Virus record (IMG/VR): IMGVR_UViG_3300031485_000046
Length of the DNA stretch: 64,000 nt
Reading direction: 5' to 3' (one strand)
From: a virus
Each line of letters begins with the position of its first letter. Position 1 is the stretch's first letter. The notes below the pieces were generated by a model. It was not told the origin of the DNA and did no database searches. It saw nothing but the letters and a program-made list of their open reading frames with translations. Both the position numbers and the translations under genes were made by a program. Positions 11,596 to 62,293 of the stretch are shown here, in pieces.

Positions 11596-12162
11596 ATGGC
11601 ATATCGAAAATCAGGGAGACCTTTAGCAGTAGCAGAACCGTGGAATGAATCAATCCCAGAAAGGGCGTATGATCTTTGCCTTCTAGGATTGCGTGATGCC
11701 GATTTAGCCACGGCATTCGGAGTTTCTATATATACCATTGATAAATGGAAACAGACTCATCCAGAGTTTAGAGAAGCACTATCCAGAGGTAAAGAACAAG
11801 CTGACGCTAAAGTGGCAGACGCACTTTACCATAAGGCAGTAGGCTATGCCCATAAAGCTGTGGACATCAGAATAGTTGACGGCGAGGTAGTGAAAATACC
11901 ATACACTAAAATCTATCCACCAGATACTACTGCCTGCATATTCTGGTTGAAGAATAGGCAAAGACAGTACTGGACGGATACCAAGCAAAATGTTCATACT
12001 GGTACAGTGGGTGTGGAACATACTATGAGACGTCAACTTGACCTTTCTGATTTCTCCAAAGAAGAACTTGCCCTAGCAGAAAAACTAGCCTCTAGGATGC
12101 TTCAGGAGGGTACTCAGGATGCAGAGTTTACAGAAGAGGGGGAGAATGACGGGGATGAGTAA
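11596..12162 (+). CDS. terS: Terminase small subunit
   Basis: Immediately upstream of and overlapping terL; RBS AAAGGAG; family assignment is recalled resemblance to HTH-type small terminases. Confidence 0.7.
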   Translation: MAYRKSGRPLAVAEPWNESIPERAYDLCLLGLRDADLATAFGVSIYTIDKWKQTHPEFREALSRGKEQADAKVADALYHKAVGYAHKAVDIRIVDGEVVKIPYTKIYPPDTTACIFWLKNRQRQYWTDTKQNVHTGTVGVEHTMRRQLDLSDFSKEELALAEKLASRMLQEGTQDAEFTEEGENDGDE

Positions 12163-13714
12163 ATATGAACGTAAGGACGCCTTAAAACGCCAAAGAGAAA
12201 ACATCATCCCAAAATCAGATAGGTTCCAAGCATTACTTTTGAACCCATTGCAGATAAAAGCAGAAAAATGCCGTAGGTCCCTATTTGAATTTATGAAAGA
12301 ATTCTGGCCAGAAGTATCCACAAGTGACCCTACATGGAATTGGCATCTAGAATACCTAGCTAACGAACTGGAAAGGATGATGTATAGAGTAGCAAACAGA
12401 CAACCAAAAGAATACGACCTCATAATAAACATAAGCCCCGGTACCACAAAGTCTACCCTATGTTCCATAATGCTGAATGCATGGGTGTGGGCTAAATGGC
12501 CTTGGCTCCGATTCATCAACGCATCCTATTCTGGAGCCCTATCTCTGGAACATTCAGAATTGTGTCGTGACCTTATACGGTCAGAACGATACAAAAGGTT
12601 ATTCCCGTATTTGGAAATAAAGCAAGACAAGGATACCAAAACTAACTTTAAAATTTTATATGATGAAGAGCGTCTGGATTCCATAACAGGCGAAGCATCT
12701 ACACTAAAAAAGAGTGGTGGTAACAGATACTCCACCTCCGTAGGCGGCACCTTGACTGGATTCCATGCTGATGTACTGTTAGTAGACGATCCATTGGATC
12801 CGCAAAGAGCTGTATCCGACGTGGAAGTCCTTAAAGCCAACACATGGATAGATCAGACACTATCTACCAGAAAGGTAGATAAAGCGGTAACACCAACCAT
12901 AATCATAATGCAAAGGCTCCATCAGAATGACCCTACGGGTTATCTGCTATCCAAGAAGAATAAAAAGATAAAGCATATCTGCCTACCAGGTGAAATACGG
13001 AATTACAGGAAAAATTTGAAACCTAAAGCCCTAGCCAAGTATTATAAGGATGATCTGTTCGACCCTATAAGAATGCCATGGAAAGTCCTTGACGACCTAA
13101 GAGTAGACCTTGGTGAATTCGGGTATGCTTCCCAGATCGGCCAATCCGCAGTATCAGACAAGGGCAACTTATTCAAGGTAGAACACTTTCAAATCATCCA
13201 TAGTATGGTACCAGACCCAGACATAGTAAGATCCATACGATACTGGGACAAAGCCGGTACAGCTGGAGCTGGAGCATACACGGTGGGGGTACGAATGCTT
13301 GCATTGAATAATGGAAAATTCCTTATCACGGATGTTAAAAGAGGGCGGTGGTCCACAGAACAACGGGAAGCCATCATCAGACAGACTGCAGAAGCCGACG
13401 GTACAGACACAATAATCTGGCATGAACAAGAACCAGGTTCAGGCGGAAAAGAATCCGCAGAAGGCACTATAAGAAACCTAGCTGGATACACCACGTATGC
13501 AGATAGGGTAACTAGAAACAAGGAAATGAGAGCGGATCCATATTCAGTCCAAGTAAATAATGGTAACGTACTGTTACTATATGCTCCGTGGAACCAAGAC
13601 TTCATAGAAGAGCACAGATACTTCCCAAATTCAACATATAAGGATCAGGTAGACGCAGCCTCAGGAGCGTTCTCTAAGGCAGTACGGAAAAAGATAGCCG
13701 GTGCGATAGGATAA
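12155..13714 (+). CDS. terL: Terminase large subunit (ATPase plus RNase H-like nuclease)
   Basis: N-terminal ATPase region; C-terminal nuclease-domain pattern (IRYWDKAGTAGAGAY...DQVDAASGAF); start at ATG 12155 with RBS, overlapping terS stop. Confidence 0.9.
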   Translation: MSKYERKDALKRQRENIIPKSDRFQALLLNPLQIKAEKCRRSLFEFMKEFWPEVSTSDPTWNWHLEYLANELERMMYRVANRQPKEYDLIINISPGTTKSTLCSIMLNAWVWAKWPWLRFINASYSGALSLEHSELCRDLIRSERYKRLFPYLEIKQDKDTKTNFKILYDEERLDSITGEASTLKKSGGNRYSTSVGGTLTGFHADVLLVDDPLDPQRAVSDVEVLKANTWIDQTLSTRKVDKAVTPTIIIMQRLHQNDPTGYLLSKKNKKIKHICLPGEIRNYRKNLKPKALAKYYKDDLFDPIRMPWKVLDDLRVDLGEFGYASQIGQSAVSDKGNLFKVEHFQIIHSMVPDPDIVRSIRYWDKAGTAGAGAYTVGVRMLALNNGKFLITDVKRGRWSTEQREAIIRQTAEADGTDTIIWHEQEPGSGGKESAEGTIRNLAGYTTYADRVTRNKEMRADPYSVQVNNGNVLLLYAPWNQDFIEEHRYFPNSTYKDQVDAASGAFSKAVRKKIAGAIG

Positions 13715-13772
13715 ACATATAAAGGTAACCAAACAGATAACCCGTTTAGCCGTAGGCTATAGGGATAAATAA

Positions 13773-13817
13773 TGATACAGATAGATATGGATTCACCTAT
13801 CTGTATCATTTTTTTAT
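13773..13817 (+). terminator. Rho-independent terminator after terL
   Basis: Perfect 12-bp stem TGATACAGATAG/CTATCTGTATCA, 12-nt loop, T-run 13809-13817. Confidence 0.6.
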
Positions 13818-14325
13818 GGTAAAATACTCATACCGTAAGGTAAGCTATGATATAGTAAAAATTGGGTAGTTTGGTAGTTATAGAGGTAGTCAGATAGAAT
13901 AGGAAAAAAACTATCCATAAAAATAACATAGATAGGTAGACTAATATGGTATAATCTATAGAAACCTATATATCAATACAATCCATACTTTTACTATCCA
14001 AATAAGCTAATAATCCAATATAATCCAGATAATCCTAAACAGGTACATATAGTCAATTATAATAAGATACAGAAGAGGCAATCCCAAATCATACTAAGAT
14101 GGTATACCAATATATCTGATACACCATATAACCTATCTCATGTAACCATACGAATATGCATATGGATAAACAGTAAGAACGACATAATACAAATATACAC
14201 CAATTCAATCAAGCTAATAGGAACATACGCAATAAGCTAATATCCGATAAGCCTAAACAGGTACATAGTCAATATCAATATCTAGTCAATAGTAAACTAA
14301 CATGCGAGCCTCCCTAAGGTAGGTC

Positions 14326-14370
14326 CCATAAATTGGTACCATAAATTGGTACCATATCCTGGTTTACCAG
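14326..14370. repeat. Tandem repeat ATAAATTGGTACC (about 2.5 copies)
   Basis: Direct read of sequence. Confidence 0.6.
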
Positions 14371-14688
14371 CATGTGGTAACCTTACCTCCATCCTTACCA
14401 TCACCTATACCACCATTCATCTGGATCTAATCTGCCTATACCCATATTTAATCTATGGTATTTAATAAATGGACACCATATTTCATAAATGGATAGCCAA
14501 AACCATACAAGCCATATCCTATTCCGTATTCCAATCCAATATATAGATACCTATACCTCCACTTCACCATGTACTGGGAAACCCAGTAATTGGTATAAAA
14601 AAATGGGACCTAAGTGTGGTAACCTAGATTTATCTATGTATGATCGTTTATATAGTGAAACCGAGATTTATACCTATTATTTTGTCCT

Positions 14689-15080
14689 CCACTATACCAA
14701 TACGGTGGTATGCTGGATTGTAATCAGGAAATTCAAATACGGAGTAGACCTCGATGTTTTACTATGTATATATAGAACGTATCTTTATAACAGTACCTAC
14801 CAACTATCCACTACGGTGGTGTGTTGGATTGTACTTATAAATATGTGGAAAATAGAAAATGGGAGGTATTTCGATGTTTTACTATGTAGAACCGACGGTC
14901 TGTTTTTGTCAGGAATCTTCCAACTATCCACTACGGTGGTATATTGGGAGATACTTACCGAAACGTGTATGATATGAAATGGGAGGTATTTCGATGTTTT
15001 ACTATGCATATATAGAGATATTGATTGGTTCCCATTTACCCTATATCTTACCCAGTATCCACTACGGTGGTATGTTGGGT
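14689..15080. repeat. Four direct repeats, period about 120-130 bp, with conserved cores CCACTACGGTGGT and GGGAGGTATTTCGATGTTTTACTATG
   Basis: Core copies at about 14689, 14801, 14921, 15051; second core at 14751, 14871, 14991. Confidence 0.7.
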
Positions 15081-15168
15081 AGTATTAATCCGTAGTATGG
15101 GTAGGTACTGTCTAGATTGTTTATCTATATATAGAGAATGAATAAGGTGTGTCCATTCCCAAAATACC

Positions 15169-15697
15169 TCAGGCCCTCCATTATCTAGAATTTTCCCCAA
15201 TTATAAAAATTTGTCAACCTCTGGCAGCTAAATGGAGTATAAGTATCCTACGGATACATGTATAAAAATGAAATCTTGGACACGTATCCAACGGATTATT
15301 TTATAAAAATGGGATTGGATTATTTTTATTTATACAGGTTCAATTTGAGAAAATGCACCTGTTTGAGTTTTCGATGGGTAATTGGTATAACAATAGTTGG
15401 ATTATATAAAAACGGTATGGGATAATACCAGACCCGTTTTGAAGGCATAAATTGCATAAATCAGTTCCGTTTATTTTTTTATTTCCTATGGATGGTACCG
15501 AATATTTCGAGGAGAAAAGGAATCCATAAAAATCATACGAGGTTTTTCATGCTACCTAATCCAAAATACGTGGCGAATTTTCGGCTCCGTAATCGTTTTT
15601 CTAGAGGTGAGCGGTGAATTCATACCGGTAGAAAATGAGCGCCTTCTAGCGCACCGCTGGCGGAGAAACTCATTGGCGGAGAAACTGGCGGAGAAAA
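15169..15697. repeat. Non-coding element B: TCAGGCCCTCCATT box (15169-15182) and three GGCGGAGAAA(C/A) repeats (15659-15669, 15675-15685, 15687-15697)
   Basis: Homologous end motifs and spacing to element A (2881-3398). Confidence 0.6.
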
Positions 15698-15748
15698 TGG
15701 ATGGATTTTTCTGTTTTTCTGTTTTTCTGATTGTTGTACATCGTTTCT

Positions 15749-15797
15749 ACATTCTACATTCTACATTCTACATTCTACATTCTACATTCTGCATTTC
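15749..15797. repeat. Heptanucleotide tandem repeat ATTCTAC, about 7 copies
   Basis: Direct read of sequence. Confidence 0.75.
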
Positions 15798-16019
15798 AGA
15801 AGAATGCATGTGGTACTTTATAAGATGCATGTATGCAATGTCATATGCATCCTTAATTGTCTCCTGATTACTATACAATTATACACTATTCCTATTCCTG
15901 TTTCAATCGTAACAGATATTTTACTATTATATAATAATCTATAGTATTGTGTCATATTGTAGAATATTCTTATATTCATGAATATCAGACAAGCATAATG
16001 CAGAATGCATATTATACAA

Positions 16020-16213
16020 TGCATTATTCAGCTATATTTTTCACAAGCATTTTTTAGTAGTACAATGCATAATGCAGAATGCATCATGCATTATTCAATG
16101 AAACATTTCACAAGTGTTCATACAGTGCATACAATACATTCTGCATCATGCATCATGCATTATTCAGCTATATTTTTCACAAGCATTTTTTAGTAGTACA
16201 ATACATTCTGCAA
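16020..16213. repeat. Two copies of a 50-bp direct repeat (16021-16070, 16157-16206) plus three copies of TTCAATGAAAYATTTCACAAG
   Basis: Direct read of sequence; repeats about 136 bp apart. Confidence 0.6.
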
Positions 16214-16439
16214 TATGCATTGTATAGCATGTATTATTCAATGAAACATTTCACAAGTGTTACTGTATCCGAAGAGTATACAATGCATTTTTCAATGAAA
16301 TATTTCACAAGCGATACTGTGATCGAATTGTATCTGAATGACTATACAATTCACTATTATTTTATAAAACTCTATAGTATTGCAGAATACAGTAGAATTC
16401 AGTAGAATTATATTAAGTGTATAGTCTTTTCATGCATAG

Positions 16440-16467
16440 TTGACATTCTATCGTAGAGTGCTATACT
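16440..16467 (+). promoter_or_regulatory. Sigma-70-type promoter for three-gene cassette
   Basis: TTGACA (16440-16445), 16-nt spacer, TATACT (16462-16467). Confidence 0.5.
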
Positions 16468-16584
16468 GTACTCGTAGCAAGCGAGCGAGCAAGTTCTTTG
16501 ACAACTGAAGAAGCAAGCTCATAACAGAGTAACACTTCTTCAGAACATACGCGCACAACGTTGCGCAGAAAGAGAGTGTGTAGC

Positions 16585-16923
16585 ATGACAACGAGCAGCA
16601 AGAAGAACGTAAACAGTAAGAAAGCTGAAATAGTCGAACAGAAAGCAGTTGAAGTAAAGAAAGAAGAAGTAAGAGAAGCAAAGAAGATTAGCAATACTCA
16701 GAAGTGTGCTGATATGATCATGCAACTTGCGAAAGACGCTAAGTATACTCGCAGTGAAATTTGTAATGCTGTTTCAGATGCACTAACAGCATTAAGCATA
16801 GTCACAGTAAAGACTATGCTTTCAGACTTGCAGAACAGCAAGTATGCAAGACGTTATAGCACTCATACTATCGCAGTAAACAAAGAAACAAAGATTGTAA
16901 CAGTAGCAAGTGAGATAAAATGA
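16585..16923 (+). CDS. Hypothetical lysine-rich protein (cassette gene 1)
   Basis: ATG at 16585 downstream of promoter; 5' leader contains 9-bp inverted repeat CTGAAGAAG/CTTCTTCAG (16503-16545). Confidence 0.55.
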   Translation: MTTSSKKNVNSKKAEIVEQKAVEVKKEEVREAKKISNTQKCADMIMQLAKDAKYTRSEICNAVSDALTALSIVTVKTMLSDLQNSKYARRYSTHTIAVNKETKIVTVASEIK

Positions 16924-17132
16924 AGTATCAGCATGTTGAACGTTCGCAAGCTCTCGCAGTAAGTGACGTTGAAACTTTGCAGAATATTGCAAAAAGACGT
17001 CTGATCGATTTGAAACAGCTTGCAAGAGAAGCAGACTCTTTACTTGTCTTTTCAGTAATAAGAAATACATGTATTCAAATCGATCGAAGCATCGATGATG
17101 CACTTGAAAACGCAAGAAAATTACTGAAGTAG
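16920..17132 (+). CDS. Hypothetical protein (cassette gene 2)
   Basis: ATGA overlap with upstream stop. Confidence 0.5.
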   Translation: MKYQHVERSQALAVSDVETLQNIAKRRLIDLKQLAREADSLLVFSVIRNTCIQIDRSIDDALENARKLLK

Positions 17133-17141
17133 TACAAAAAA

Positions 17142-17185
17142 AGATAGTCAAGTATCTACAATTCGATACTTGACTATCTTTTTAT
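17142..17185 (+). terminator. Rho-independent terminator
   Basis: Perfect 15-bp stem AGATAGTCAAGTATC/GATACTTGACTATCT, 8-nt loop, T-rich tail. Confidence 0.6.
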
Positions 17186-17208
17186 CTCATTTGAAAGAGA
17201 GTGATACT

Positions 17209-17532
17209 ATGTTAGATAATCAGTATGAATTACATCAAAAGATACAAAAAATAGAACACAAGCATATCAGATTACATGCAAGCAATTGTATGTACAAATT
17301 GATGAATATTCAATTGTTACTTGAAGAACAGATTAATCTACTCATTTCTGATATTGTAGCAAATGATGCTTCTGTTAGTGAAATATTGCTAACAGAACGT
17401 CAAAGTACATTTGATAATGAACTTTTTGCGATAACGACAAAAGAAGATAGAAAAGCAATAGCAATACTGCATAATACTATAATCGATAGTATGAATGCAG
17501 TAAGAAAGACAATCATCTATACAGACGAATAA
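17209..17532 (+). CDS. Hypothetical protein (cassette gene 3)
   Basis: ATG at 17209 (MLDNQYELHQ) after weak RBS; ORF track start at 17170 lies inside the terminator. Confidence 0.5.
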   Translation: MLDNQYELHQKIQKIEHKHIRLHASNCMYKLMNIQLLLEEQINLLISDIVANDASVSEILLTERQSTFDNELFAITTKEDRKAIAILHNTIIDSMNAVRKTIIYTDE

Positions 17533-17574
17533 AATTACACAATAGAGCATAATTGATAGCAATTGAATAGAAAA

Positions 17575-17612
17575 GAGTAGTCAATACTAGACTACTCTTT
17601 TCTTTTTTATTC
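17575..17612 (+). terminator. Rho-independent terminator
   Basis: Stem AGAGTAGTC/GACTACTCT, 7-nt loop, T-run. Confidence 0.6.
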
Positions 17613-17750
17613 ATGCATACAATGCATGATGCATCCTGCACTATGCATAGTATAAGCGTTCATAGTAGCATTTGATAACATAACACTACACTATTTATTA
17701 CAATTAGACAATATACTACAATATGATAGTGTAGTGTGTATTGTCTATTC

Positions 17751-17794
17751 TATACACTACAATATAGACAAGTATACACTACAATATAGACAAG
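17751..17794. repeat. Tandem 22-bp direct repeat TATACACTACAATATAGACAAG (2 copies), flanked by inverted repeat ACACTACACTAT/ATAGTGTAGTGT
   Basis: Direct read of sequence. Confidence 0.6.
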
Positions 17795-17998
17795 TATAGA
17801 ATAGAGTATAATAATCTATAGTATGCTACACTATATAGCAATATAATATAATAATATATAATTGTATAGTAAAGCAGATACAATTCAATACAATGACTGC
17901 GCTAGTATACAATGCATGATGCATGATGCATCGTACACAATGCATAATGTAAAATCGATTTTACACGTTGCAGAATGCATGCTGGCTCCTGGCCCCCT

Positions 17999-18152
17999 CT
18001 AAAATTGTGACAAATTTTTCTGGATATTAAAATGGGTAATCCATTATTTTCTAAAGCATATTCATTATTTATTCTACGTATCTTTCACACACCCCTCGTA
18101 AAATTGCTACTGATTTTTCCCAATACTAAAGTGGGTAATCCATTATTTTCGA
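17999..18152. repeat. Two copies of about 55-bp element ending in TGGGTAATCCATTATTTTC (promoter-like)
   Basis: Copies at about 17999-18052 and 18094-18150; degenerate third at about 18340-18375. Confidence 0.55.
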
Positions 18153-18414
18153 TATATCTATTCTGTATGACTGTATAGATAGTATAAGATGCAGTATCCA
18201 ATTTTAACTAATGGATTAATATACCCAATTTACTCATACTATACGTATCTTCATGGATCCGTTTTCTTTCGTCTTTATTTTTACCATACCCCGTCATTCT
18301 GTATGAATTTATCCAAAAATAACCGCATAAATATTTTGTAAAAATTTATATGGGAGTTAAAATGGGTTGATTAGATCAGTAGAGAGGTTAGATCACACTA
18401 GGGAGTTAGATACG

Positions 18415-18452
18415 ATGCATCCTAGCCCGGATCCTGATAGGCTAGGATGCAT
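18415..18452. other. Perfect 13-bp inverted repeat (stem-loop) ATGCATCCTAGCC / GGCTAGGATGCAT with 12-nt loop
   Basis: Direct read of sequence; no T-run follows. Confidence 0.5.
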
Positions 18453-18674
18453 ATAGAAACTATGTTTGTCGTAATATATCTTGAAAACGCATCAGATTCG
18501 TTTCATACTGTGCGATTTCCTTGCTTATGGAAGCTGTTCGTTCTGTTTCAGACGTTGTTTCTATCGTCTAGAGTGAAAAAGATCGAATACCGTGCAAGGA
18601 TTTAACGTGTCATGCCATCCCATTCGGTTGTTCCCTCCGTCCTTGCGACTTTCCTATAAGGGATGGAAACCGGG

Positions 18675-18893
18675 TCATTTCGCCCGCTCCTCCCAGAACC
18701 GTCTGCGTCGCTCCTCCCTGTGACGCTTGATATTCTCCCGCACCCTCTGCGTGCGGGGCGGGAACGTGTTCAGATGGGTCAGCACCGGCTCCACGCTGAC
18801 AGCTCTGCCGAATTCCCTCTCCCATTCCTGGGCGTAGATTTCCTCGTAGGATAACATTTCGCGAAATCTGAGCCCCGTGCATCGTCCGCTCAT
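18675..18893 (-). CDS. Small basic, arginine-rich protein encoded in a GC-rich patch
   Basis: ATG overlaps stop of KdsB-like gene (ATGA); local composition visibly GC-richer than surroundings. Confidence 0.4.
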   Translation of the reverse strand: MSGRCTGLRFREMLSYEEIYAQEWEREFGRAVSVEPVLTHLNTFPPRTQRVRENIKRHREERRRRFWEERAK

Positions 18894-19684
18894 TCCTTAC
18901 CCTCCTTTTTTTCTATAATTTCATCATATTCATTTTCTTTACCAGAGTTTATTATACAACGAACAGCTTCCAAATCAGCAGGAGTATCTACACTAGGTCC
19001 AACTTTTTTTGCTCTTGTTATTTCTACTTTAATGGAAAAATCATGTTCTAATATTCTGAGCTGTTCCAGTGATTCTGCTGATGCCAAAGGTGTTTGTGGC
19101 ATTTTGGCATAATAATGGATTAAGAAACGTCTAGTAAATCCATAAATTCCTATATGTCGGTAGATGGGATATACTTCTTCCGGATCTCTAATAAAAGGGA
19201 TAGGAGACCTACTGAAATATAAAGCATCTCCATTTATTCTGAATGCCACTTTTACTACCGATGGATCATTGATAGTAGCGGTATCTGTAATAAGGGCACA
19301 TATCGTAGCAGATTCCGTAGCCCTATTTTCAGTTTTATAAAATAATGATATTACTTCATCAATCATACAAGGATTAAGTAATGGTTCATCCCCTTGTATG
19401 TTTATCACTATATTATTATTAGAGAATTTTTTAGCTATTTCCACAACTCTACTAGTTCCGTTTGTATGATTTGGAGAAGTTAGCATAGCTTCTCCACCGA
19501 AATTATTTACAGCCTGCACGATTCTTTCATCGTCAGTAGCTACAATCAACCGGTCAAGTAAAGTAGATCGTGAGGCTCGCTCGTACACTCTCTGGATCAT
19601 TGTTTTTCCGCATATATCAGCTAGAGGTTTACCGGGGAGCCTTGTAGAATTGTATCTAGCGGGGATAACTCCTAAAGTTATCAT
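18890..19684 (-). CDS. kdsB: CMP-Kdo synthetase-like cytidylyltransferase (3-deoxy-manno-octulosonate cytidylyltransferase family)
   Basis: IPARYNSTRLPGKPL, VATDDE, GGE, QGDEP, ALYFSR, HIGIYGF, LEQLR, VDTPADLE match KdsB signature blocks as recalled. Confidence 0.85.
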   Translation of the reverse strand: MITLGVIPARYNSTRLPGKPLADICGKTMIQRVYERASRSTLLDRLIVATDDERIVQAVNNFGGEAMLTSPNHTNGTSRVVEIAKKFSNNNIVINIQGDEPLLNPCMIDEVISLFYKTENRATESATICALITDTATINDPSVVKVAFRINGDALYFSRSPIPFIRDPEEVYPIYRHIGIYGFTRRFLIHYYAKMPQTPLASAESLEQLRILEHDFSIKVEITRAKKVGPSVDTPADLEAVRCIINSGKENEYDEIIEKKEGKE

Positions 19685-19703
19685 TATTTATCACTTCCAT
19701 TCA

Positions 19704-19850
19704 TTATTTAAGATTATGTGGTACTTTTTTGTCAAGTTCCAGTAATTTTGCATTAACTTTTTCTAGTTCAGCCATGAGAAATATTACCATATCGCATCTA
19801 TCAGGTAGTATTTTTTCTTTACCTGTTACTTTCCTCCATAATTCTACCAT
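19704..19850 (-). CDS. Short ORF (48 aa) paralogous to C-terminal half of the 20615-20914 protein; not in ORF track
   Basis: ELWRKVTGKEKILPDRCDMVIFLMAELEKVNAKL vs RLWRKTTGKDFIMPDRCDLVVYLMEELDKAKRRI; no clear RBS. Confidence 0.3.
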   Translation of the reverse strand: MVELWRKVTGKEKILPDRCDMVIFLMAELEKVNAKLLELDKKVPHNLK

Positions 19851-19906
19851 CGGGATTTGTCCAAAGTTTCTTGTTATTGTCGTATTTCTATCCAGTTCTA
19901 TAATAC

Positions 19907-20443
19907 TTATTCAGAAAGGTTGTCATGTTCACTTGCATTTTCCTCCTTTGTTGGAAGTGGTACCGGTAACTTTTCTTTTATGCAATTCATAAGGATTGTA
20001 TATTTCCTTTCTTGCATCATTTCTAATGCTTTTACCATCGTTTTTCCCCAACCATTACATGAATATTTTCCTAAGTCTTTAATGTAGGCAACGTATCCTT
20101 TCATTCCGTTTAGTTCTGTAGTCATTGGCTGAATTGTAATGGAATACGGAATTTTCATCAATTCATCTATAGTGGGATCCTCGTTTCTGTTTATATTTTG
20201 TGAAATTACCGACATATTTATCATGTCAAACCTATTAGACATACGGTCAGGTACGTTAATCGTAGCACCACATCCGGAGCATCGCAAAATTAAGGAATCT
20301 AATTCTGCAATCATTTTATATGGATTTGGATACGCATACTGTATTTGGTCAAGAGTGTCAATTGGTTTAGCGCAAAGTGGGCAAATTATTTGTCTACCGT
20401 CACAAAACAATACATAACGCCCTTGTCCTATAGAAAGACTCAT
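19907..20443 (-). CDS. Hypothetical protein with paired CxxC motifs
   Basis: 178-codon ORF with AAAGGAG RBS. Confidence 0.6.
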   Translation of the reverse strand: MSLSIGQGRYVLFCDGRQIICPLCAKPIDTLDQIQYAYPNPYKMIAELDSLILRCSGCGATINVPDRMSNRFDMINMSVISQNINRNEDPTIDELMKIPYSITIQPMTTELNGMKGYVAYIKDLGKYSCNGWGKTMVKALEMMQERKYTILMNCIKEKLPVPLPTKEENASEHDNLSE

Positions 20444-20637
20444 TCTTCCATCTCCTTTTTAAGCAAAGCCTTCTGCATTTTCCCCAAAGCCGCAAACAAC
20501 GTATCTTTACAACCCGTATAGATATACAGACTGCCCACAACTTTACCATCAACGAGTACAGTATATGTAGGAGATTTGATTGGCCCATGGTTCTCTTCGA
20601 GTATTATCACTATTTCATTCCCCCTTTTCCATTTCAC
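20440..20637 (-). CDS. Hypothetical small protein
   Basis: GTG start, no clear RBS, overlaps upstream gene by 23 nt. Confidence 0.35.
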   Translation of the reverse strand: MKWKRGNEIVIILEENHGPIKSPTYTVLVDGKVVGSLYIYTGCKDTLFAALGKMQKALLKKEMEE

Positions 20638-20914
20638 GTATTCTACGTTTAGCTTTATCCAATTCCTCCATCAGATATACTACTAAATCACATCTGTCTG
20701 GCATGATAAAATCTTTCCCTGTTGTTTTTCGCCATAGTCTTACCGCTCTCATATCCGCTTTCCATACAATATCGAACACATTCTGGAGTTGTTTAGCGTC
20801 TTCTTTCAAGGAATCCACGAGCATTTTCATATTTTCTAACCGTTTTTTCAAGGAATCTCTCTCTTTAACCAGCTTTTCTAGTTCTTGCATGAGCAATTTT
20901 CGATCACTTTCCAT
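20615..20914 (-). CDS. Hypothetical coiled-coil protein
   Basis: ATG 20912-20914 with AAGGAGGG RBS. Confidence 0.55.
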   Translation of the reverse strand: MESDRKLLMQELEKLVKERDSLKKRLENMKMLVDSLKEDAKQLQNVFDIVWKADMRAVRLWRKTTGKDFIMPDRCDLVVYLMEELDKAKRRIREMEKGE

Positions 20915-21044
20915 CAATGTCCCTCCTTATAAATTTGCGCTTCACTATATTATACAACACCATTTTTGCTCATTTATACATAGTTTTCCATGAAAATTGT
21001 GTTTAATTTGCAATTATAGTATACTGTATAGTTTTCTGTCATAG

Positions 21045-21095: not shown

Positions 21096-22556
21096 GTGAG
21101 TAGGATAGAAAATATCAGTACCAACGAATTGGTTGGGCAATTACAGCGGATTACAGCTATGGCTGAACTGGCTACAAGAATGAATGTCGGTGCTAGGATG
21201 GGAATGCAGTATGACGGCCAACGGGATATTGCAAAAGCTCTTGGCTACCCACAAACAATACGGTACAACGACCTCCTTGCCGCATATACCCGTCAGGATA
21301 TGGCGAAAGCCATTATAGATCGTCCCGTAAAATCTACTTGGCGTGGAGATTTCAAGCTAGTAGAAACCCACAGGGACGATGATACGCAACTCGAAACAGC
21401 TTGGTCTACATTATATAGGAAATTGCACATAAAACAGAATTTCCTTAGAGTGGACAAGCTAGCCTGCCTCGGTAATTATGCTCTTCTTTTTCTTGGTTTC
21501 AATGATGTGAATAGTCCTGAAGAATTGATACGACCTGTTTCTGCTGGAGTAGGACGTGAATTGCTGTATTTGAAACCGTTTGGACAGAATGTCATTCAGA
21601 TCAAAGATTGGGAAGATGATACAAGTTCACCTGAATATGGAATGCCGCTTATTTATGAAGTAGACATTGGAGAAGCATCATCTAAAAAGAGCCGAACTGT
21701 CAGCATCCATCGGTCAAGGATTGTTCATGTAGCTTTCGACCTACTTGAATCAGAGTATGAAGGTGCTCCTGTTCTAGAAGTTGTTTTTAACCGTCTGAAA
21801 GACCTTGAAAAGCTAGTAGGCGGTTCTGCTGAAATGTTCTGGAGAGGTGCTAGACCTGGATATGCAGGTAAAATTGATCCAGAATACATGCTGACGAAAG
21901 ATACGGAAGAGGGATTGAAACGCCAGCTGGATGAGTTTGAAAATAATCTGCGAAGGATACTCATGCTTGAAGGTGTTACACTCGATAGCCTTGAGCCGCA
22001 GGTAGTTGACCCGTCTATGCACGTTGATATCCAGATTCAGATGATTTCTGCTATTACTGGTATTCCTAAGAGAATTCTTACAGGAAGTGAGCGAGGTGAT
22101 CTTGCTTCTACGCAAGACAAAGATAACTGGCTCGACCTTATCCAAATGCGACGGGAAGAATATGCTGAACCTAAGATCATTCGAGCAACCATTGACCGTT
22201 GTATTGAATTTGGTGTGCTTCCTAAGCCTGAAAAGGAAACATACAAAATAAAATGGCAGGATCTTTATGCACCGTCTGTTAAGGATCAAGCGGACATTGG
22301 GCAGATACGTTCGCTTGCCTTGAAACATTATACGTACAATCCTGAAGCAGAGCAGTTTATCCCGTTTGAAGCGTTCCTTACATTCTTCCTTGGTTTGGAA
22401 GATGAGGAAGTGGAGTATATCAAAAAGCTCCAGCAAACAAGTGAAAGGATATTGACGCCTGAATTAAAGGAACTTGCGAATGAAAATGCACCAACACGGA
22501 GAGAACGCCCTCCGCGGAGAGGAATACCTCGAGAGGATGAAGAACTAGAAAAGTGA
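21096..22556 (+). CDS. Portal protein
   Basis: Size and position (first gene of head module after terminase region); GTG start abuts RBS so true start may be downstream. Confidence 0.75.
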   Translation: MSRIENISTNELVGQLQRITAMAELATRMNVGARMGMQYDGQRDIAKALGYPQTIRYNDLLAAYTRQDMAKAIIDRPVKSTWRGDFKLVETHRDDDTQLETAWSTLYRKLHIKQNFLRVDKLACLGNYALLFLGFNDVNSPEELIRPVSAGVGRELLYLKPFGQNVIQIKDWEDDTSSPEYGMPLIYEVDIGEASSKKSRTVSIHRSRIVHVAFDLLESEYEGAPVLEVVFNRLKDLEKLVGGSAEMFWRGARPGYAGKIDPEYMLTKDTEEGLKRQLDEFENNLRRILMLEGVTLDSLEPQVVDPSMHVDIQIQMISAITGIPKRILTGSERGDLASTQDKDNWLDLIQMRREEYAEPKIIRATIDRCIEFGVLPKPEKETYKIKWQDLYAPSVKDQADIGQIRSLALKHYTYNPEAEQFIPFEAFLTFFLGLEDEEVEYIKKLQQTSERILTPELKELANENAPTRRERPPRRGIPREDEELEK

Positions 22557-55510: not shown

Positions 55511-57328
55511 TTATTTGAAATGGTAATCTCCCTTCTCATTCCAAGAACAATCAACAGGACACACTTCTGCTTCTACTTCCAAGGGTACATTTATCCAGCT
55601 CCAGTGCTTAGGTAAATCTTCACAAGTAATCCTATGAACAGTAGACGCAACCATATCTAATTCGTCAGGATGCACATCCAACACCATTGCGTCATGTATC
55701 TGTCCGATCAATCTGGATTTCCAGTTCTGTTCTCTGGATATCTTGTCAACCTGAATGAACGACCATAACAGACAATGAAATGCACTTCCCTGAATAGGAA
55801 TATTTATGCATTCATTCCTACGCATGATACCAGAACATCTGAATCCTGTGTACATGCTCACATACCCGTTTTTTTGATACCCTTCCCACCACTTGTCTTT
55901 CCAACGATTATACACTTTGAATCGCCTATTCCAAAAATCATCTTCAATTTTCTTGATATGGTCCGTAAACTTATCGAAGGAATCTAGCTTGTTTGCAATC
56001 AAGTGGTCGGAAATATGACCTCCGTCATGCTCAATGCCTTCACCTTTCTTCCATTTGCCTTTAGATAATCCGCACCATTTACAAGCAATATTTTCGGCGC
56101 AGTTTACATAATAGTCACCATAGAACTGCGGAAATACAAATCCGTTCTTTGCCGCTTGCCTCATCATTTTATGCGATGGTATACTCTTGTCTAACTTATC
56201 AAGTACAAATATCTGACAAGCCATATCACCGTGCATATCCGATGAAGGATCTTCAATGTACTTTCTCATAACAGGGTCATGATGGTAACACTCGCTGATT
56301 CTTACTTCCACTCCTGAATAGTCTATTTCAAGTAGCTGGTGACCTGGCTTAGGAAATATCGCTTTGCGAGTAATCTCCATAGCCTCTTTATCTCGCTTGG
56401 GAATATTTTGGAAGTTTATCCGCTCCGATGAATTATGTACGCATATTTGGTTCACGATAAAATTATGATATTTTTCCACTTCAATATCGTACACATCTAC
56501 CGGCTCATCAAGGTACTCTATTGTGTGGTCTGTATGATTAGACAATACCTTATTAGAAAGACGTGTATCTGATAACGCCCTCGCTTGCACGTATGTTCCA
56601 TCTATTAGACGGATTTTGTGCTCAGGTGTCACATCTAAGTATCCTTTCCCACCTCCACCGTTTATAGAGTAATGGATTCGCACAACTTTCTTATGTCCTG
56701 TTTTGCCAGCCCATATAACTTTTTGAATAGAAGGGCGGAGTTTATCGTCAAAACAATACACATAATCACCCTTCTTTACATTTTCAATAGGGGTCCCTTC
56801 TGGTTGTGCTTCAAAATCTTTCATTACCAATACTTTAGATCCTTTAGCTACACAAGAGCGAAATGTCTTTACTGTATGCAAATTAAAGAAAGGATGCAAG
56901 TATCCGCCTACTTGTTCTCTTATGAAAGCATCCAGATACGTATCTCGCACCTTTTTCAATTTGCGCATTTCCAAAATCCACTTTATCTCAGGAATATCAA
57001 TCTGGGAAAGTGCTTCATCGTCTGTTGCACCCTTGCCAGATGGTGTCAACTTTGCAGGGGTGATTTTCCTAACATTGTACAAAAGGTGTGCTAACTGCCA
57101 ATTAGAATCAGGGTTAGCCTTAGCACCATACACCTTCGTCCAATGCATATAGAATTTAGTATCCCTGAGTTTTCTATCCAATCGTGCTATTTTTTTGTCA
57201 AGGTACTCTTTTTTCTTTAAGCAGTAATCAACATCAATCCGCATTCCTTCTTGTTCTGCCCTCGCAAAAGCAAGGATGCCATCTTGCAATAGCTGATATG
57301 CTTCAGGAAGATTAGGTGTCAGTTGCAT
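55511..57328 (-). CDS. DNA polymerase family A, polymerase subunit (intein-containing)
   Basis: NFQNIP, motif A DYSGVEVRI, motif B RQAAKNGFVFPQFYG, motif C QIHDAMV; start at ATG 57326-57328 with AAGGAGGG RBS. Confidence 0.9.
   Translation of the reverse strand: MQLTPNLPEAYQLLQDGILAFARAEQEGMRIDVDYCLKKKEYLDKKIARLDRKLRDTKFYMHWTKVYGAKANPDSNWQLAHLLYNVRKITPAKLTPSGKGATDDEALSQIDIPEIKWILEMRKLKKVRDTYLDAFIREQVGGYLHPFFNLHTVKTFRSCVAKGSKVLVMKDFEAQPEGTPIENVKKGDYVYCFDDKLRPSIQKVIWAGKTGHKKVVRIHYSINGGGGKGYLDVTPEHKIRLIDGTYVQARALSDTRLSNKVLSNHTDHTIEYLDEPVDVYDIEVEKYHNFIVNQICVHNSSERINFQNIPKRDKEAMEITRKAIFPKPGHQLLEIDYSGVEVRISECYHHDPVMRKYIEDPSSDMHGDMACQIFVLDKLDKSIPSHKMMRQAAKNGFVFPQFYGDYYVNCAENIACKWCGLSKGKWKKGEGIEHDGGHISDHLIANKLDSFDKFTDHIKKIEDDFWNRRFKVYNRWKDKWWEGYQKNGYVSMYTGFRCSGIMRRNECINIPIQGSAFHCLLWSFIQVDKISREQNWKSRLIGQIHDAMVLDVHPDELDMVASTVHRITCEDLPKHWSWINVPLEVEAEVCPVDCSWNEKGDYHFK
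56432..56854 (-). mobile_element. Mini-intein (141 aa) inserted in polymerase
   Basis: Begins Cys (CVAKGSKV), TPEH block B, ends YHNFIVNQICVHN followed by Ser; flanking exteins reconstitute HTVKTFRS-SERINFQNIP. Confidence 0.8.
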
Positions 57329-58590
57329 CCTATGTACCCTCCTTGCTGAATCCATCGCATTTGTTTAGATGCTAACCGGTAAGTGAACAAACTATCCATA
57401 CCACAGTATATCAATAGTTTATTCCAAATATCAGATCCTACAGGAACATCAAGCAATTTGTTCATGGAATTGCTATCTTTATCATCCGCCCCTTTAAGAT
57501 ATGGAGCGACCTCATCATCATACCCTGCTACACCAAAATTGATATAGGTTTGTATCTTCAATCCTGTGATGTCTGGTCTGTTATCAAGAATGTGTGTAGC
57601 CAACATAGTATCCCATATCCAGTTTTTTACTTCATACCCCAGAATATTTTGTGTCCATGTGTGTTCAAACTTCAGATTTTGGGCAATCTTTCCTATCTTG
57701 TCTGATTGCAAAATTTCCTTAAGCAGTCTATTTCCTTTCTTACTTTTAGGCATCCCAAAAACTATTGCATCTTCAGGATTACTACACATGGACATGCAGA
57801 TGATTTTGTGCTTGCTTGTATCATGCGGTTTAAGGCCCGTCGTTTCATAATCAATAGCAATAGAAAACGGAAACTTTCTAGAAAGAAACTCTTCAAAAAT
57901 TCCTACTAGCTCACTTTCTGATTTTACTATCTTGATAGCCGTCATTTCATCTGGATATGTTTGCATAGACATGTCCACTGTATTTAATGCCCTGTCAAGG
58001 TCCTGTTTCCATACTGTTCGATATTCCTGTGCATCTTGTTTTTCTACAAACTCTGGATGAAATATCGGGCAGATCCACGTATTGTATTTCCTATCTGGAA
58101 TAGTAAATCCTCTCCATTTATTCATTCCACCTAAATTCTTTGTCCAGATAGAACCTATCACGGAGTTTAATGCTAGTTCACCTACAAGAATTATCACTTT
58201 AGGTTTATACTGCTCAATAGTAGATAGCACTCTTCGTCGGCAACATTGAACTTCTTTTGTCCACGGATTGGTGGTTTCCTTGGACCCTGAAGCATAGCAA
58301 GACAAAGCAAAGAGATTCAGACAGTCTTTGAACAAATCAACGCCTCTACGTTCAAATTCTCGCCTAAGCGTTGTTCCAAATCTGTCTTGCCACGGTTTGC
58401 CTACTCGATCATCTCTACTGCTTGGCATATCACCAATGACCATTATTTTCTTTTCAAATTCCCCGAATGGTGCCATTCTAGGAGACGAAATATCTTTATA
58501 CAACCCACAAGAAGCGCAAGAGAAAGCCTTATTACCACTAGGCCTAGTTTTAGATTTAGTTTCTTCTACTGAAAAGAATCCACTAGCCAT
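57319..58590 (-). CDS. DNA polymerase A accessory subunit: UDG-like domain plus 3'-5' exonuclease domain
   Basis: N-terminal CASCG and IMVIGDMPS (family-4 UDG-like, variant motif); Exo I IDYETTGL; separate ORF overlapping pol subunit by 10 nt. Confidence 0.85.
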   Translation of the reverse strand: MASGFFSVEETKSKTRPSGNKAFSCASCGLYKDISSPRMAPFGEFEKKIMVIGDMPSSRDDRVGKPWQDRFGTTLRREFERRGVDLFKDCLNLFALSCYASGSKETTNPWTKEVQCCRRRVLSTIEQYKPKVIILVGELALNSVIGSIWTKNLGGMNKWRGFTIPDRKYNTWICPIFHPEFVEKQDAQEYRTVWKQDLDRALNTVDMSMQTYPDEMTAIKIVKSESELVGIFEEFLSRKFPFSIAIDYETTGLKPHDTSKHKIICMSMCSNPEDAIVFGMPKSKKGNRLLKEILQSDKIGKIAQNLKFEHTWTQNILGYEVKNWIWDTMLATHILDNRPDITGLKIQTYINFGVAGYDDEVAPYLKGADDKDSNSMNKLLDVPVGSDIWNKLLIYCGMDSLFTYRLASKQMRWIQQGGYIGCN

Positions 58591-61178: not shown

Positions 61179-61604
61179 TCAGTTACCTGTTCCGTCGTAC
61201 TCGGCAATCACCGAAATATCAGTACCACCTCTGCGATTGAAATTAGCCTCTATTCGCATGTGGTACGGTTTGCAAGCGTTCGACAGATCGTCCAGTATTT
61301 TGTTTGTAACAGACTCCATAAACGCTCCGTGCTGACGATATGCTCCCATGTATATCTTGAGTGCTTTCGTTTCCAAACAAAAATCCTTTGGAAAGTATCG
61401 AATCGTGATAGTGCCAAAATCAGGATTTCCTGTACGCGGACACAGACTGGAAAATTCCGTGAATACGAACTCCGTGGCGTATTGCCTGTCTTTGCACGGA
61501 TTATCAAATACTTCAAGAAGAGCTGGATCTGGATTATTGTACCTGTCGTACGGTACGACTGTTCCGAGGTTTTTCAGATGGTCTACATTCACTTTTCTAT
61601 CCAT
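61179..61604 (-). CDS. queF: NADPH-dependent 7-cyano-7-deazaguanine reductase QueF
   Basis: EFSSLCPRTGNPDFGT (catalytic Cys motif) and ETKALKIYM (QueF motif); start ATG 61602-61604 with GAGGAGGG RBS. Confidence 0.85.
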   Translation of the reverse strand: MDRKVNVDHLKNLGTVVPYDRYNNPDPALLEVFDNPCKDRQYATEFVFTEFSSLCPRTGNPDFGTITIRYFPKDFCLETKALKIYMGAYRQHGAFMESVTNKILDDLSNACKPYHMRIEANFNRRGGTDISVIAEYDGTGN

Positions 61605-62292: not shown

Positions 62293-62293
62293 C

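What the first reader, a model, noticed from the sequence alone, without database searches (positions are those of the whole stretch)
16440..17612. Self-contained three-gene cassette with its own promoter and terminators inside the non-coding region
A consensus-like promoter (TTGACA-16-TATACT), a structured leader, three small genes (16585-16923, 16920-17132, 17209-17532) and two strong terminators form an isolated unit. Small proteins under an independent strong promoter are typical of host-takeover or anti-defence functions, but no motif identifies them.
Basis: partly seen in the sequence, partly recalled or inferred. Interest (0 to 1): 0.55.

Follow-up and report, generated by a model that had tools for sequence, protein, structure and literature searches.

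The report
Conserved phage promoter-driven small-gene cassette
This is a real, self-contained small operon in an uncultured lytic phage: a near-consensus promoter drives a conserved winged-helix DNA-binding gene plus small genes that differ between related phages, all closed by hairpin terminators, but what the proteins do is still unproven.

Summary
The promoter (16440-16467), the three genes (16585-16923, 16920-17132, 17209-17532) and the two hairpin terminators (17138-17183, 17569-17603) are all present. They sit in about 4.9 kb of otherwise gene-free, repeat-rich DNA between the terminase and portal genes of a phage. The unit recurs at the same place in every related metagenomic phage contig examined.

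The promoter, a private ribosome-site box (GAAAGAGAGTGA) and the last hairpin are conserved. All three genes are under purifying selection (dN/dS 0.1-0.25).

Gene 1 is always present. It has a disordered K/E-rich tail plus a confidently predicted winged helix. Gene 2 is a two-helix hairpin, present in about 40% of the gene-1 count. Gene 3 (about 10%) is one of at least eight interchangeable orphan cargo genes.

Most likely this is a host-RNA-polymerase-transcribed (early) operon: a DNA-binding regulator plus swappable accessory genes. Anti-defence or host takeover is plausible for the cargo only, and nothing tests it.

Two things are unexpected. ATGCAT heptad arrays flank the cassette in inverted orientation. 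Distant relatives of gene 1, including a 305-aa gene in this phage, sit directly upstream of queC in 7-deazaguanine clusters.

It is a new variant of a known kind, of moderate interest.

The parts
15746..16300 (.). Upstream array of 7-nt-phased ATGCA(T/G)N heptads. It includes (TCTACAT)x7 at 15746-15794 and five ~68-nt units at 15999-16315. Each unit also carries a TTCACA-17-TACAAT promoter-like site and a TGAAA(C/T)ATTTCA palindrome.
   Evidence: ATGCAT is about 30-fold enriched in 15.7-18.0 kb. Equivalent arrays are present in relatives.
16322..16396 (.). Left arm of the inverted repeat that brackets the cassette.
   Evidence: 75 nt, 71% complementary to 17815-17889. In the L013 lineage a different 19-mer repeat upstream has its own inverted copy downstream of T2, at 90%.
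16416..16431 (+). Invariant upstream box AGTGTATAGTCTTTTC (about -60 to -45). Its GTATAG forms an inverted repeat with CTATAC of the -10 region, 36 nt apart.
   Evidence: It occurs only once in the window.
16440..16467 (+). Sigma-70-type promoter TTGACA-16-TATACT with an extended -10 TG.
16474..16584 (+). 5' leader of about 110 nt with three hairpins: a 5'-proximal one, 16505-16543, and about 16550-16567.
   Evidence: compensatory changes occur in the middle hairpin. Leader length varies from 54 to 198 nt among lineages.
16568..16579 (+). Cassette-private ribosome-site box GAAAGAGAGTGT, ahead of ORF1.
16585..16923 (+). ORF1, 112 aa. It has a disordered K/E-rich tail (residues 1-35) and a winged-helix domain (36-112). 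This is the invariant gene of the cassette.
16920..17132 (+). ORF2, 70 aa, a two-helix antiparallel hairpin. It overlaps ORF1 by 4 nt (ATGA), which suggests translational coupling.
17138..17183 (+). T1, a 19-bp perfect hairpin flanked by an A-run and a T-run. It is an internal terminator or attenuator and a cassette junction. Its 5' arm resembles the ribosome-site box.
   Evidence: It is 93% conserved with L010 although it flanks different genes there.
17193..17204 (+). Second copy of the box, GAAAGAGAGTGA, ahead of ORF3.
17209..17532 (+). ORF3, 107 aa, an orphan cargo gene. Its helical character is my reading of the sequence; no structure was predicted.
   Evidence: In relatives the slot holds other genes. 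There is a weak similarity to a 90-aa cargo gene of L010.
17569..17609 (+). T2, the terminal hairpin AGAAAAGAGTAGTC-AATACTA-GACTACTCTTTTCT followed by a T-run.
   Evidence: It is conserved in the 11 close relatives examined. A more diverged lineage has a different hairpin whose 5' arm carries the box.
17609..17990 (.). Downstream heptad arrays (17613-17650, 17905-17990) in inverted orientation relative to the upstream arrays. The stretch also holds the AT-richest 200 nt (17700-17899, GC 0.24) and a perfect 22-nt tandem (17751-17794).
17815..17889 (.). Right arm of the inverted repeat that brackets the cassette.

Best explanation
This is an autonomous operon, probably read by the host RNA polymerase and therefore probably early, in a lytic phage that appears to carry 7-deazaguanine DNA modification genes.

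Transcription starts at the near-consensus extended -10 promoter (about 16474). It runs through a hairpin-containing leader into ORF1 and the translationally coupled ORF2. T1 stops part of the transcripts. The rest continue through ORF3 and end at T2.

ORF1 is the fixed component, a winged-helix DNA-binding protein. It most likely controls this promoter and/or binds the repeat arrays around the cassette.

ORF2 and ORF3 are exchangeable accessory genes. They lie between conserved junctions made of the GAAAGAGAGTGA box plus a hairpin, and related phages carry other small orphan genes in the same slots. Their most plausible role is host interaction (takeover, anti-defence or exclusion).

SHOWN: the signals, their conservation, that the genes are coding, the fold of ORF1 and ORF2, and the modular exchange.
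INFERRED: early timing, DNA binding and autoregulation by ORF1, attenuation at T1, and the role of the cargo.
For: SIGNALS. The promoter is one of the two best sigma-70 matches in 64 kb and is conserved in all relatives. Similar promoters sit at the expected divergent intergenic regions of this phage (11453-/11487+, 21042-/21045+, 8552-), so the host uses this promoter type. T1 and T2 are the strongest folds in the region.

CODING. dN/dS is 0.1-0.25 for all three genes. Cluster counts are 114, 44 and 12 for ORF1, ORF2 and ORF3.

FOLDS. ORF1 residues 36-112 form a winged helix with pLDDT above 90. Conserved basic residues lie in the recognition helix and wing. Only generic winged-helix regulators match it: Fur, SarX, MarR. 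ORF2 is a helical hairpin with pLDDT 95.

MODULARITY.
- Minimal form: promoter-ORF1-T2 in L024, L063 and L075.
- Other forms add ORF2, a 77-aa gene, 81+90 aa, 72 aa, 97/108 aa, 62 aa or ORF3.
- Each added gene is preceded by the box.
- T1-type hairpins separate modules in the multi-gene forms.

THE BOX. All 27 exact copies of the 10-nt core AAAGAGAGTG in 177 kb of related sequence lie in the cassette. All but the two inside a terminal hairpin sit just upstream of, or overlapping, a start codon. The other phage genes use AGGAGG.

DIVERGENCE. The cassette is 74% identical to L010 (dS about 1), while the flanks are 92-97% identical.
Against: - There are no expression data, so 'early' is only inferred from promoter quality.
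- No protein matches any known regulator family, anti-defence protein or takeover protein.
- No clear operator was found. The only conserved inverted repeat at the promoter (GTATAG-N36-CTATAC) has one arm that is the -10 element itself.
- T1 looks like an efficient terminator, and no promoter lies between T1 and ORF3, so ORF3 expression depends on unproven read-through.
- The dense heptad arrays, the co-varying inverted flanks and the AT-rich tract are not needed by this model. They suggest the cassette serves the surrounding DNA.
- Distant relatives of ORF1 are linked to queC genes, which points to some other DNA-related role.
Confidence: 0.5

Rival explanations
1. The cassette is part of a replication origin or another DNA-organising centre. 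ORF1 binds the ATGCA(T/G)N heptad iterons on both sides of its own gene. Strong transcription from the promoter towards the AT-rich tract after T2 helps open the DNA, as in transcription-activated phage origins. The cargo genes are passengers.
For: - ATGCAT is about 30-fold enriched in 15.7-18.0 kb, flanking the cassette but absent from it apart from one copy just upstream of the -35 (16432). The same holds in relatives.
- The arrays and lineage-specific repeats occur as inverted pairs around the cassette.
- The AT-richest 200 nt, with perfect 22-nt tandem repeats, follow T2.
- ORF1 and the non-coding DNA always occur together. More distant relatives, where the portal gene directly follows the terminase gene, lack both.
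- The phage encodes a primase, a helicase loader, polymerase A and a clamp, but I recognised no initiator.
- Several non-coding blocks are more conserved than the cassette genes.
Against: - A 77-residue winged helix with no oligomerisation or helicase-loading domain is small for an initiator.
- The heptads are degenerate, and binding was not tested.
- GC skew follows gene orientation and gives no origin signal.
- An essential origin protein would not be expected to be the most diverged gene of the region.
- Not every gene of the window was annotated, so an initiator may exist elsewhere.
Confidence: 0.2
2. ORF1 is an abundant architectural protein that recognises the phage's own 7-deazaguanine-modified DNA. 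It would be comparable in role to SPO1 TF1, which prefers hydroxymethyluracil DNA. The cassette exists to make this protein in large amounts early in infection.
For: - The winged-helix domain belongs to a wider family with invariant T, D, N and Y that fit the pattern T-x-x-[ST]-D-x-x-N-x-K-Y.
- Two of its distant members lie directly upstream of queC-folE-queF in other phage contigs.
- This phage's own 305-aa gene (62294-63211, minus strand), directly upstream of queC, carries the same domain (hhalign E 1.6e-4).
- That gene also has an acidic stretch and a K/A/P-rich tail like a linker histone.
- The phage encodes QueC, a type II QueF (143 bits) and a Vut_1 transporter.
- ORF1 has a charged disordered tail and a very strong promoter.
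Against: - The link to queC rests on three contexts and on marginal similarity (library E about 1e-4; hhalign probability 51%). A fourth distant member is not next to queC.
- No DpdA transglycosylase was identified in the window, so DNA modification itself is unproven.
- Fold matches are generic.
- The comparison with TF1 comes from my own knowledge and is an analogy only.
Confidence: 0.12
3. The cassette is a selfish mobile or invertible element bounded by its inverted repeats, and has no role for the phage.
For: - Inverted repeats bracket the cassette (16322-16396 and 17815-17889). The equivalent pair in another lineage has a different sequence but still matches itself.
- More distant relatives lack the whole region.
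Against: - No transposase, integrase, invertase or homing endonuclease lies in or next to it.
- It has the same position and orientation in every contig that includes a terminase or portal flank.
- It was not found anywhere else: one 2.7-kb mis-binned contig among 185,579 species genomes, and none in 50,697 phage records.
- The genes are under purifying selection.
Confidence: 0.04

Closest known systems
PeSL-flanked orphan genes in the hyperplastic regions of T4-like phages (PMC2839356, PMC4122927)
   Same: - Small genes of unknown function are bounded by short conserved regulatory motifs that include a stem-loop.
- The motifs mark the points where closely related phages differ by gain, loss or swap of genes.
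- These regions diverge much faster than the core genome.
   Different: - A PeSL is a composite of an early promoter and a terminator stem-loop at every junction. Here there is one promoter for the whole unit, and the junctions are a hairpin plus a private ribosome-site box. No promoter-like site serves ORF3.
- There is no sequence relation.
- Here a fixed DNA-binding gene heads the array.
- The unit sits alone in kilobases of repeat-rich non-coding DNA.
Anti-CRISPR operons with an Aca regulator (PMC6765145, PMC9410906, PMC13551039)
   Same: - One strong promoter drives a conserved DNA-binding gene together with small, variable, fast-evolving orphan genes.
- The conserved gene is the marker of the locus.
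   Different: - Aca proteins are classical helix-turn-helix repressors, usually encoded last in the operon, and they bind inverted repeats in the promoter. ORF1 is a winged helix encoded first.
- No convincing operator was found.
- No neighbour is related to a known anti-CRISPR.
Host-RNA-polymerase early modules of lytic phages: T7 class I genes behind A1-A3, T5 pre-early region, SPO1 host-takeover module (my own knowledge)
   Same: - Consensus-like host promoters, small genes and intrinsic terminators.
- A position next to repeat-rich non-coding DNA. In T5 the injection-stop region is similar in appearance.
   Different: - Those modules lie at or in the terminal repeats and hold many genes. 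The genome ends of this phage are unknown, and the window's two ends share no sequence.
- This unit has one to six genes.
- There is no protein homology.
Heptad-repeat operators of the omega repressor of inc18 plasmids such as pSM19035 (my own knowledge)
   Same: Contiguous 7-bp repeats occur in direct and inverted orientation near promoters, next to a small DNA-binding gene.
   Different: - Omega is a ribbon-helix-helix protein. ORF1 is a winged helix and ORF2 is all-helical with no N-terminal strand.
- The heptad sequence differs: WATCACW against ATGCAKN.
- I recognised no partition ATPase.

Membership tests
Sigma-70-dependent transcription unit with intrinsic terminators | -35 and -10 hexamers close to consensus with 16-18 nt spacing | tested here: met
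   11 of 12 matches plus TG; among the top two of the window; conserved in relatives.
Sigma-70-dependent transcription unit with intrinsic terminators | A stable hairpin followed by a U-run at the 3' end | tested here: met
   T2 has a 14-bp stem plus U6, z -6.4. T1 has a 19-bp stem, z -9.7, but its U-run lies partly inside the stem.
Sigma-70-dependent transcription unit with intrinsic terminators | Transcript start and end observed | not testable with these tools
   No expression data.
Winged-helix DNA-binding proteins (ORF1) | Three helices followed by a beta-hairpin wing | tested here: met
   The AlphaFold model has H37-51, H56-66, H72-83, E94-98 and E104-110, with pLDDT above 90. Top fold matches are winged-helix regulators, but only at E of 0.04 or worse.
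Winged-helix DNA-binding proteins (ORF1) | Membership of a named sequence family (MarR, Fur, PadR and others) | tested here: not met
   Nothing reaches the threshold in Pfam, PHROGs, NCBIfam or PDB sequences.
Anti-CRISPR-associated (Aca) regulator operon | A helix-turn-helix gene in one operon with a known anti-CRISPR gene | tested here: inconclusive
   A DNA-binding fold is present. The neighbours are orphans with no known relatives. No anti-CRISPR library was available.
Anti-CRISPR-associated (Aca) regulator operon | Inverted-repeat operator overlapping the promoter | tested here: inconclusive
   The only candidate is GTATAG-N36-CTATAC, and one arm is the -10 element itself.
Anti-CRISPR-associated (Aca) regulator operon | Regulator encoded downstream of the variable genes | tested here: not met
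   ORF1 is the first gene in every locus.
PeSL mobile regulatory cassettes | A composite early promoter plus stem-loop at each junction | tested here: not met
   Junctions have a stem-loop plus the ribosome-site box but no usable promoter.
PeSL mobile regulatory cassettes | Junction motifs coincide with gain and loss points between close relatives | tested here: met
   T1 and T2 and the box are retained, while the genes between them differ.
Integron gene cassettes | A tyrosine-recombinase integrase next to the array, and attC sites | tested here: not met
   No recombinase lies in 11-21 kb. The hairpins are perfect palindromes with terminator features, not attC-like.
Omega/heptad operator systems | A ribbon-helix-helix protein that binds 7-bp repeats | tested here: not met
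   Heptad arrays are present, but ORF1 is a winged helix and ORF2 a helical hairpin.
Terminal-repeat early or host-takeover module | Location in or next to the terminal redundancy of the virion DNA | not testable with these tools
   There is no overlap between the window ends. Contigs of relatives run through the region. Physical ends need reads or virion DNA.

The most novel reading that the evidence does not exclude
ORF1 may belong to an undescribed winged-helix family with invariant T, D, N and Y fitting T-x-x-[ST]-D-x-x-N-x-K-Y. Its longer members sit directly upstream of queC in phage 7-deazaguanine gene clusters, including a 305-aa gene in this same phage.

On this reading the cassette is the control centre of the ~4.9-kb non-coding region, not a moron-type (accessory gene) locus. 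ORF1 would bind the modified phage DNA and/or the inverted ATGCAKN heptad arrays and organise an origin or early-promoter nucleoprotein complex.

The private box-plus-hairpin junctions would be a dedicated system for exchanging and translating small cargo genes.
Probability: 0.2. Interest if true: 0.7.

Novelty: new variant of a known kind. Interest (0 to 1): 0.5.

Why it matters
If the main reading is right, the conserved promoter, ORF1, the box and T2 make a simple sequence tag. It could be used to harvest fast-evolving phage accessory genes from metagenomes, in the way aca genes are used to find anti-CRISPRs. At least eight orphan families were found this way here.

The cassette-private ribosome-site box is unusual in a phage whose other genes use AGGAGG. 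It could mark a separate layer of translational control.

The recurrent position of ORF1-like domains next to queC suggests an unrecognised DNA-binding partner of phage 7-deazaguanine modification systems. This could be tested with cultured Que-encoding phages.

The surrounding ~4.9 kb of conserved, repeat-dense non-coding DNA between terminase and portal is itself rare for a phage of about 65 kb.

Tried and rejected
NO MATCHES FOUND.
- Rfam on the whole window and on 13.7-18.9 kb at a permissive threshold gave only chance microRNA hits on the hairpins. There are no tRNAs.
- DNA and protein searches of 50,697 phage records found nothing for the region, ORF1 or ORF3.
- IMG/VR scans with ORF1 and ORF3 found no relatives.
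- The species-genome scan found one mis-binned 2.7-kb contig.
- Pfam, PHROGs, PADLOC and NCBIfam gave nothing above threshold for ORF1-3 or for six cargo proteins from relatives.
- PDB sequence profiles for ORF1, ORF2, ORF3 and the wider family gave nothing.
- Fold searches gave generic winged-helix matches for ORF1 and no match for ORF2. The AlphaFold-database library was unavailable.

HYPOTHESES REJECTED.
- Hidden genes under recoded stop codons: rejected.
- A large structured RNA in the non-coding DNA: rejected, because only the terminators stand out.
- Bacteroidota host, suggested by terminase relatives: rejected because of strong AGGAGG use and sigma-70-type promoters.
- Archaeal host, suggested by portal hits and a Methanolobus bin: rejected because the clamp, clamp loader, RecA and primase are bacterial types.

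LOW-YIELD OR UNRESOLVED.
- The exact 16-mer scan of metagenome contigs returned mostly chance matches.
- Terminal-repeat test: the window ends do not overlap, which is uninformative.
- The 323-aa gene after queF could not be identified as DpdA.
Full report
SETTING

The window is most of a phage genome of about 65 kb. The main landmarks are:
- small and large terminase at 11596-13714 (+);
- portal at 21096-22556 (+), followed by structural genes to about 43.9 kb;
- minus-strand replication and nucleotide-metabolism genes on both arms.

The minus-strand genes include:
- polymerase A with an intein;
- a beta clamp and clamp loader;
- RecA and SbcCD;
- a primase and a DnaC/IstB-like loader;
- an SNF2 helicase;
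- ThyX;
- QueC, a type II QueF and a Vut_1 transporter.

Genes use strong AGGAGG ribosome sites. Good sigma-70-type promoters sit at the divergent intergenic regions. The host is therefore a bacterium with canonical promoters, not a member of the Bacteroidota and not an archaeon, despite some capsid-gene similarities.

After the terminase terminator (13767-13814) come about 4.9 kb without credible genes, up to the end of a minus-strand accessory module at about 18610. The only exception is the reported cassette.

THE OBSERVATION

- Promoter. The site at 16440-16467 (TTGACA-16-TATACT, with TG) is one of the two best matches in 64 kb.
- Genes. The three ORFs have exactly the coordinates given, and independent gene callers predicted them identically.
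- Terminators. T1 (17138-17183, -25.7 kcal/mol, z -9.7) and T2 (17569-17603 plus U6, -21.3 kcal/mol, z -6.4) are the strongest local structures in the whole 5-kb region.
- Leader. It folds into three hairpins, and the middle one shows compensatory changes among five relatives. The overall energy is not unusual, and one group of relatives has a leader of only 54 nt.

IT IS A CONSERVED FEATURE OF A PHAGE LINEAGE

ORF1 has 114 clusters of relatives at 60-100% identity. All are unannotated and all come from metagenomes.

Every contig long enough to show context has the same order:
- small terminase, then large terminase;
- 1.7-2.9 kb of non-coding DNA;
- the promoter and ORF1, followed by cargo genes;
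- more non-coding DNA;
- minus-strand small genes;
- the portal gene.

A more diverged lineage lacks the minus-strand module and keeps only the non-coding DNA and the cassette. In terminase relatives at 57-59% identity, the portal gene follows the terminase gene directly. The whole block is therefore specific to this lineage.

The lineage is absent from 50,697 phage records and from IMG/VR.

THE GENES ARE REAL

Pairwise dN/dS is 0.12-0.25 for ORF1, 0.11-0.23 for ORF2 and 0.16 for ORF3.

The cassette is also a hot spot of divergence. Against locus L010 it is 74% identical (dS about 1). The terminase gene, several non-coding blocks and the portal side are 92-97% identical.

WHAT THE PROTEINS ARE

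- ORF1 has a variable, disordered K/E-rich tail of about 35 residues and a nearly invariant 77-residue domain. The domain is modelled with pLDDT above 90 as three helices plus a two-stranded wing, that is, a winged helix. Structure searches return only generic winged-helix regulators at weak scores. No sequence family claims it.
- ORF2 is a two-helix antiparallel hairpin (pLDDT 95) with no significant structural match. It overlaps ORF1 by ATGA here and in relatives.
- ORF3 has 12 close clusters and no other relatives.

MODULAR ARCHITECTURE

A uniform parse of 14 loci shows fixed and variable parts.

Fixed parts:
- the invariant box AGTGTATAGTCTTTTC, then the promoter;
- ORF1;
- the terminal hairpin T2.

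Variable parts lie between ORF1 and T2:
- nothing at all (L024, L063, L075);
- ORF2;
- an unrelated 77-aa gene;
- an 81+90-aa pair;
- a 72-aa gene;
- a 97/108-aa gene;
- a 62-aa gene;
- ORF3.

The T1 hairpin separates modules in the multi-gene forms, is sometimes duplicated, and is 93% conserved although it borders different genes.

Almost every cassette gene is preceded by the box GAAAGAGAGTGA. Its 10-nt core AAAGAGAGTG occurs 27 times in 177 kb of window plus related loci. All 27 copies lie inside the cassette on the coding strand. All but the two inside a terminal hairpin sit just upstream of, or overlapping, a start codon. In the window only 16568-16579 and 17193-17204 match with at most one mismatch.

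The 5' arms of the hairpins are near-copies of the box. By my own alignment, the box pairs with a Firmicute-type 16S 3' tail on both sides of a 3-nt mismatch that replaces the GGAGG core. Three readings remain open: a specialised ribosome site, a target of a regulator, or microhomology for cassette exchange.

THE SURROUNDINGS ARE NOT NEUTRAL

ATGCAT occurs 22 times in 15.7-18.0 kb, which is 9.6 per kb against 0.34 per kb elsewhere. None lies between the -35 element and T2; the nearest copy (16432) is immediately upstream of the -35.

The sites are phased every 7 nt (ATGCAKN). One run is (TCTACAT)x7. The arrays upstream and downstream of the cassette are in inverted orientation. Relatives have equivalent arrays.

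An inverted repeat brackets the cassette (16322-16396 and 17815-17889). In the L013 lineage a different 19-mer, repeated three times just upstream of the promoter, has its own inverted copy after T2. The flanks therefore change together.

The 200 nt after T2 are the AT-richest of the region and hold a perfect 22-nt tandem.

These features are what an origin, a partition-like site or a regulatory nucleoprotein complex would look like. They are why I keep a 0.2 rival in which ORF1 serves this DNA.

A LEAD FROM DISTANT RELATIVES

A profile search of 1.8 billion representatives found only 14 proteins. Seven of these are distant (E about 1e-4) and carry the domain at their C-terminal end.

Three of the distant members could be placed in context.
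- Two are encoded immediately upstream of queC-folE-queF in unrelated phage contigs.
- One is not next to queC.

The window's own gene upstream of queC (62294-63211, minus strand, 305 aa) has three features:
- the same domain (hhalign E 1.6e-4, probability 51%), sharing the invariant T, D, N and Y that fit T-x-x-[ST]-D-x-x-N-x-K-Y;
- a long acidic stretch;
- a K/A/P-rich tail.

The main papers on phage 7-deazaguanine systems do not mention such a protein. The similarity is marginal and the sample is small, so this is a lead and not a result.

MECHANISM I COMMIT TO (confidence 0.5)

1. Host RNA polymerase starts at about 16474.
2. The message encodes ORF1 and the coupled ORF2.
3. T1 attenuates transcription.
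4. Read-through transcripts add ORF3 and stop at T2.

ORF1 is a DNA-binding regulator of this locus and perhaps of the arrays. ORF2 and ORF3 are exchangeable accessory genes, most plausibly acting on the host.

The signals, coding status, folds and modular exchange are shown. Timing, binding and cargo function are inferred.

COMPARISON WITH KNOWN SYSTEMS

- It works most like the PeSL-bounded orphan genes of T4-like hyperplastic regions (PMC2839356, PMC4122927) and like acr-aca operons (PMC6765145, PMC9410906).
- It fails defining features of both. There is no promoter at each junction, the regulator comes first, it has a different fold, and there is no clear operator.
- It is not an integron and not an omega-type system.
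- Membership of a terminal-repeat early module cannot be tested without reads.

VERDICT

The finding is real and conserved, and it is a new variant of a known kind: a promoter-driven phage accessory operon with a resident regulator. Three aspects are unexplained and worth follow-up:
- the private translation box;
- the inverted heptad arrays;
- the possible link to 7-deazaguanine clusters.

Interest is 0.5.

Noticed in passing
window 62294-63211 (-), next to queC at 61597-62436 (-): A 305-aa protein directly upstream of queC. It has a small N-terminal domain, a very acidic stretch, a domain related to the ORF1 winged helix (signature TILSDGTNPKY) and a K/A/P-rich tail like a linker histone. 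Distant relatives P0175 and P0178 occupy the same position upstream of queC-folE-queF in other phage contigs (L152, L153-L155).
   Followed up: partly
window 13715-15700: These non-coding blocks are as conserved as, or more conserved than, neighbouring genes. 13714-13985, 14246-14888 and 15156-15658 are 92-95% identical to L010. They include four ~120-nt tandem units (14687-15089), each with the palindrome CCACTACGGTGG, and a 41-nt tandem at 15230-15311. No conserved ORF, Rfam match or strong fold was found.
   Followed up: partly
window 15955-15630 (-): Two 11/12 promoter-like sites on the minus strand (15955->15926 and 15906->15878) face a terminator-like hairpin at 15652-15639. A minus-strand RNA of about 250-300 nt made from here would contain (AUGUAGA)x7. 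The promoter block 15916-15984 is conserved in all lineages.
   Followed up: no
window 17993-18150 and 18236-18602: Two 99-nt repeats end in GGGTAATCCATTATTTTC. A non-coding block is 85-90% identical in all relatives. It contains a conserved hairpin whose stem starts and ends with ATGCAT (18413-18452).
   Followed up: no
window 18610-20917 (-): A second variable accessory module lies on the minus strand and converges on the cassette. Here it holds a CTP_transf_3 cytidylyltransferase (18890-19684, CMP-sugar synthetase type) and a zinc-ribbon protein. Relatives carry ThyX, an N6/N4 DNA methyltransferase or P22_Y8K6-family genes instead. One lineage lacks the module altogether.
   Followed up: partly
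window 55511-58590 (-) and 61179-62436 (-): Polymerase A is split into a UDG plus exonuclease gene and a polymerase gene interrupted by an intein. The phage also encodes QueC, a type II QueF (preQ1 synthase, 143 bits) and a Vut_1 precursor transporter, which suggests preQ1-type 7-deazaguanine DNA. No DpdA was identified. The 323-aa gene at 60205-61176 is a positional candidate with no detectable similarity.
   Followed up: partly
L024:1474-1671: In one relative the cassette leader is expanded to 198 nt by a duplicated GC-rich insert (GCAATGGCGAGCGGTAATGCGCGAGGACCCATTGT, two copies). This shows that the leader is also a site of insertion.
   Followed up: no
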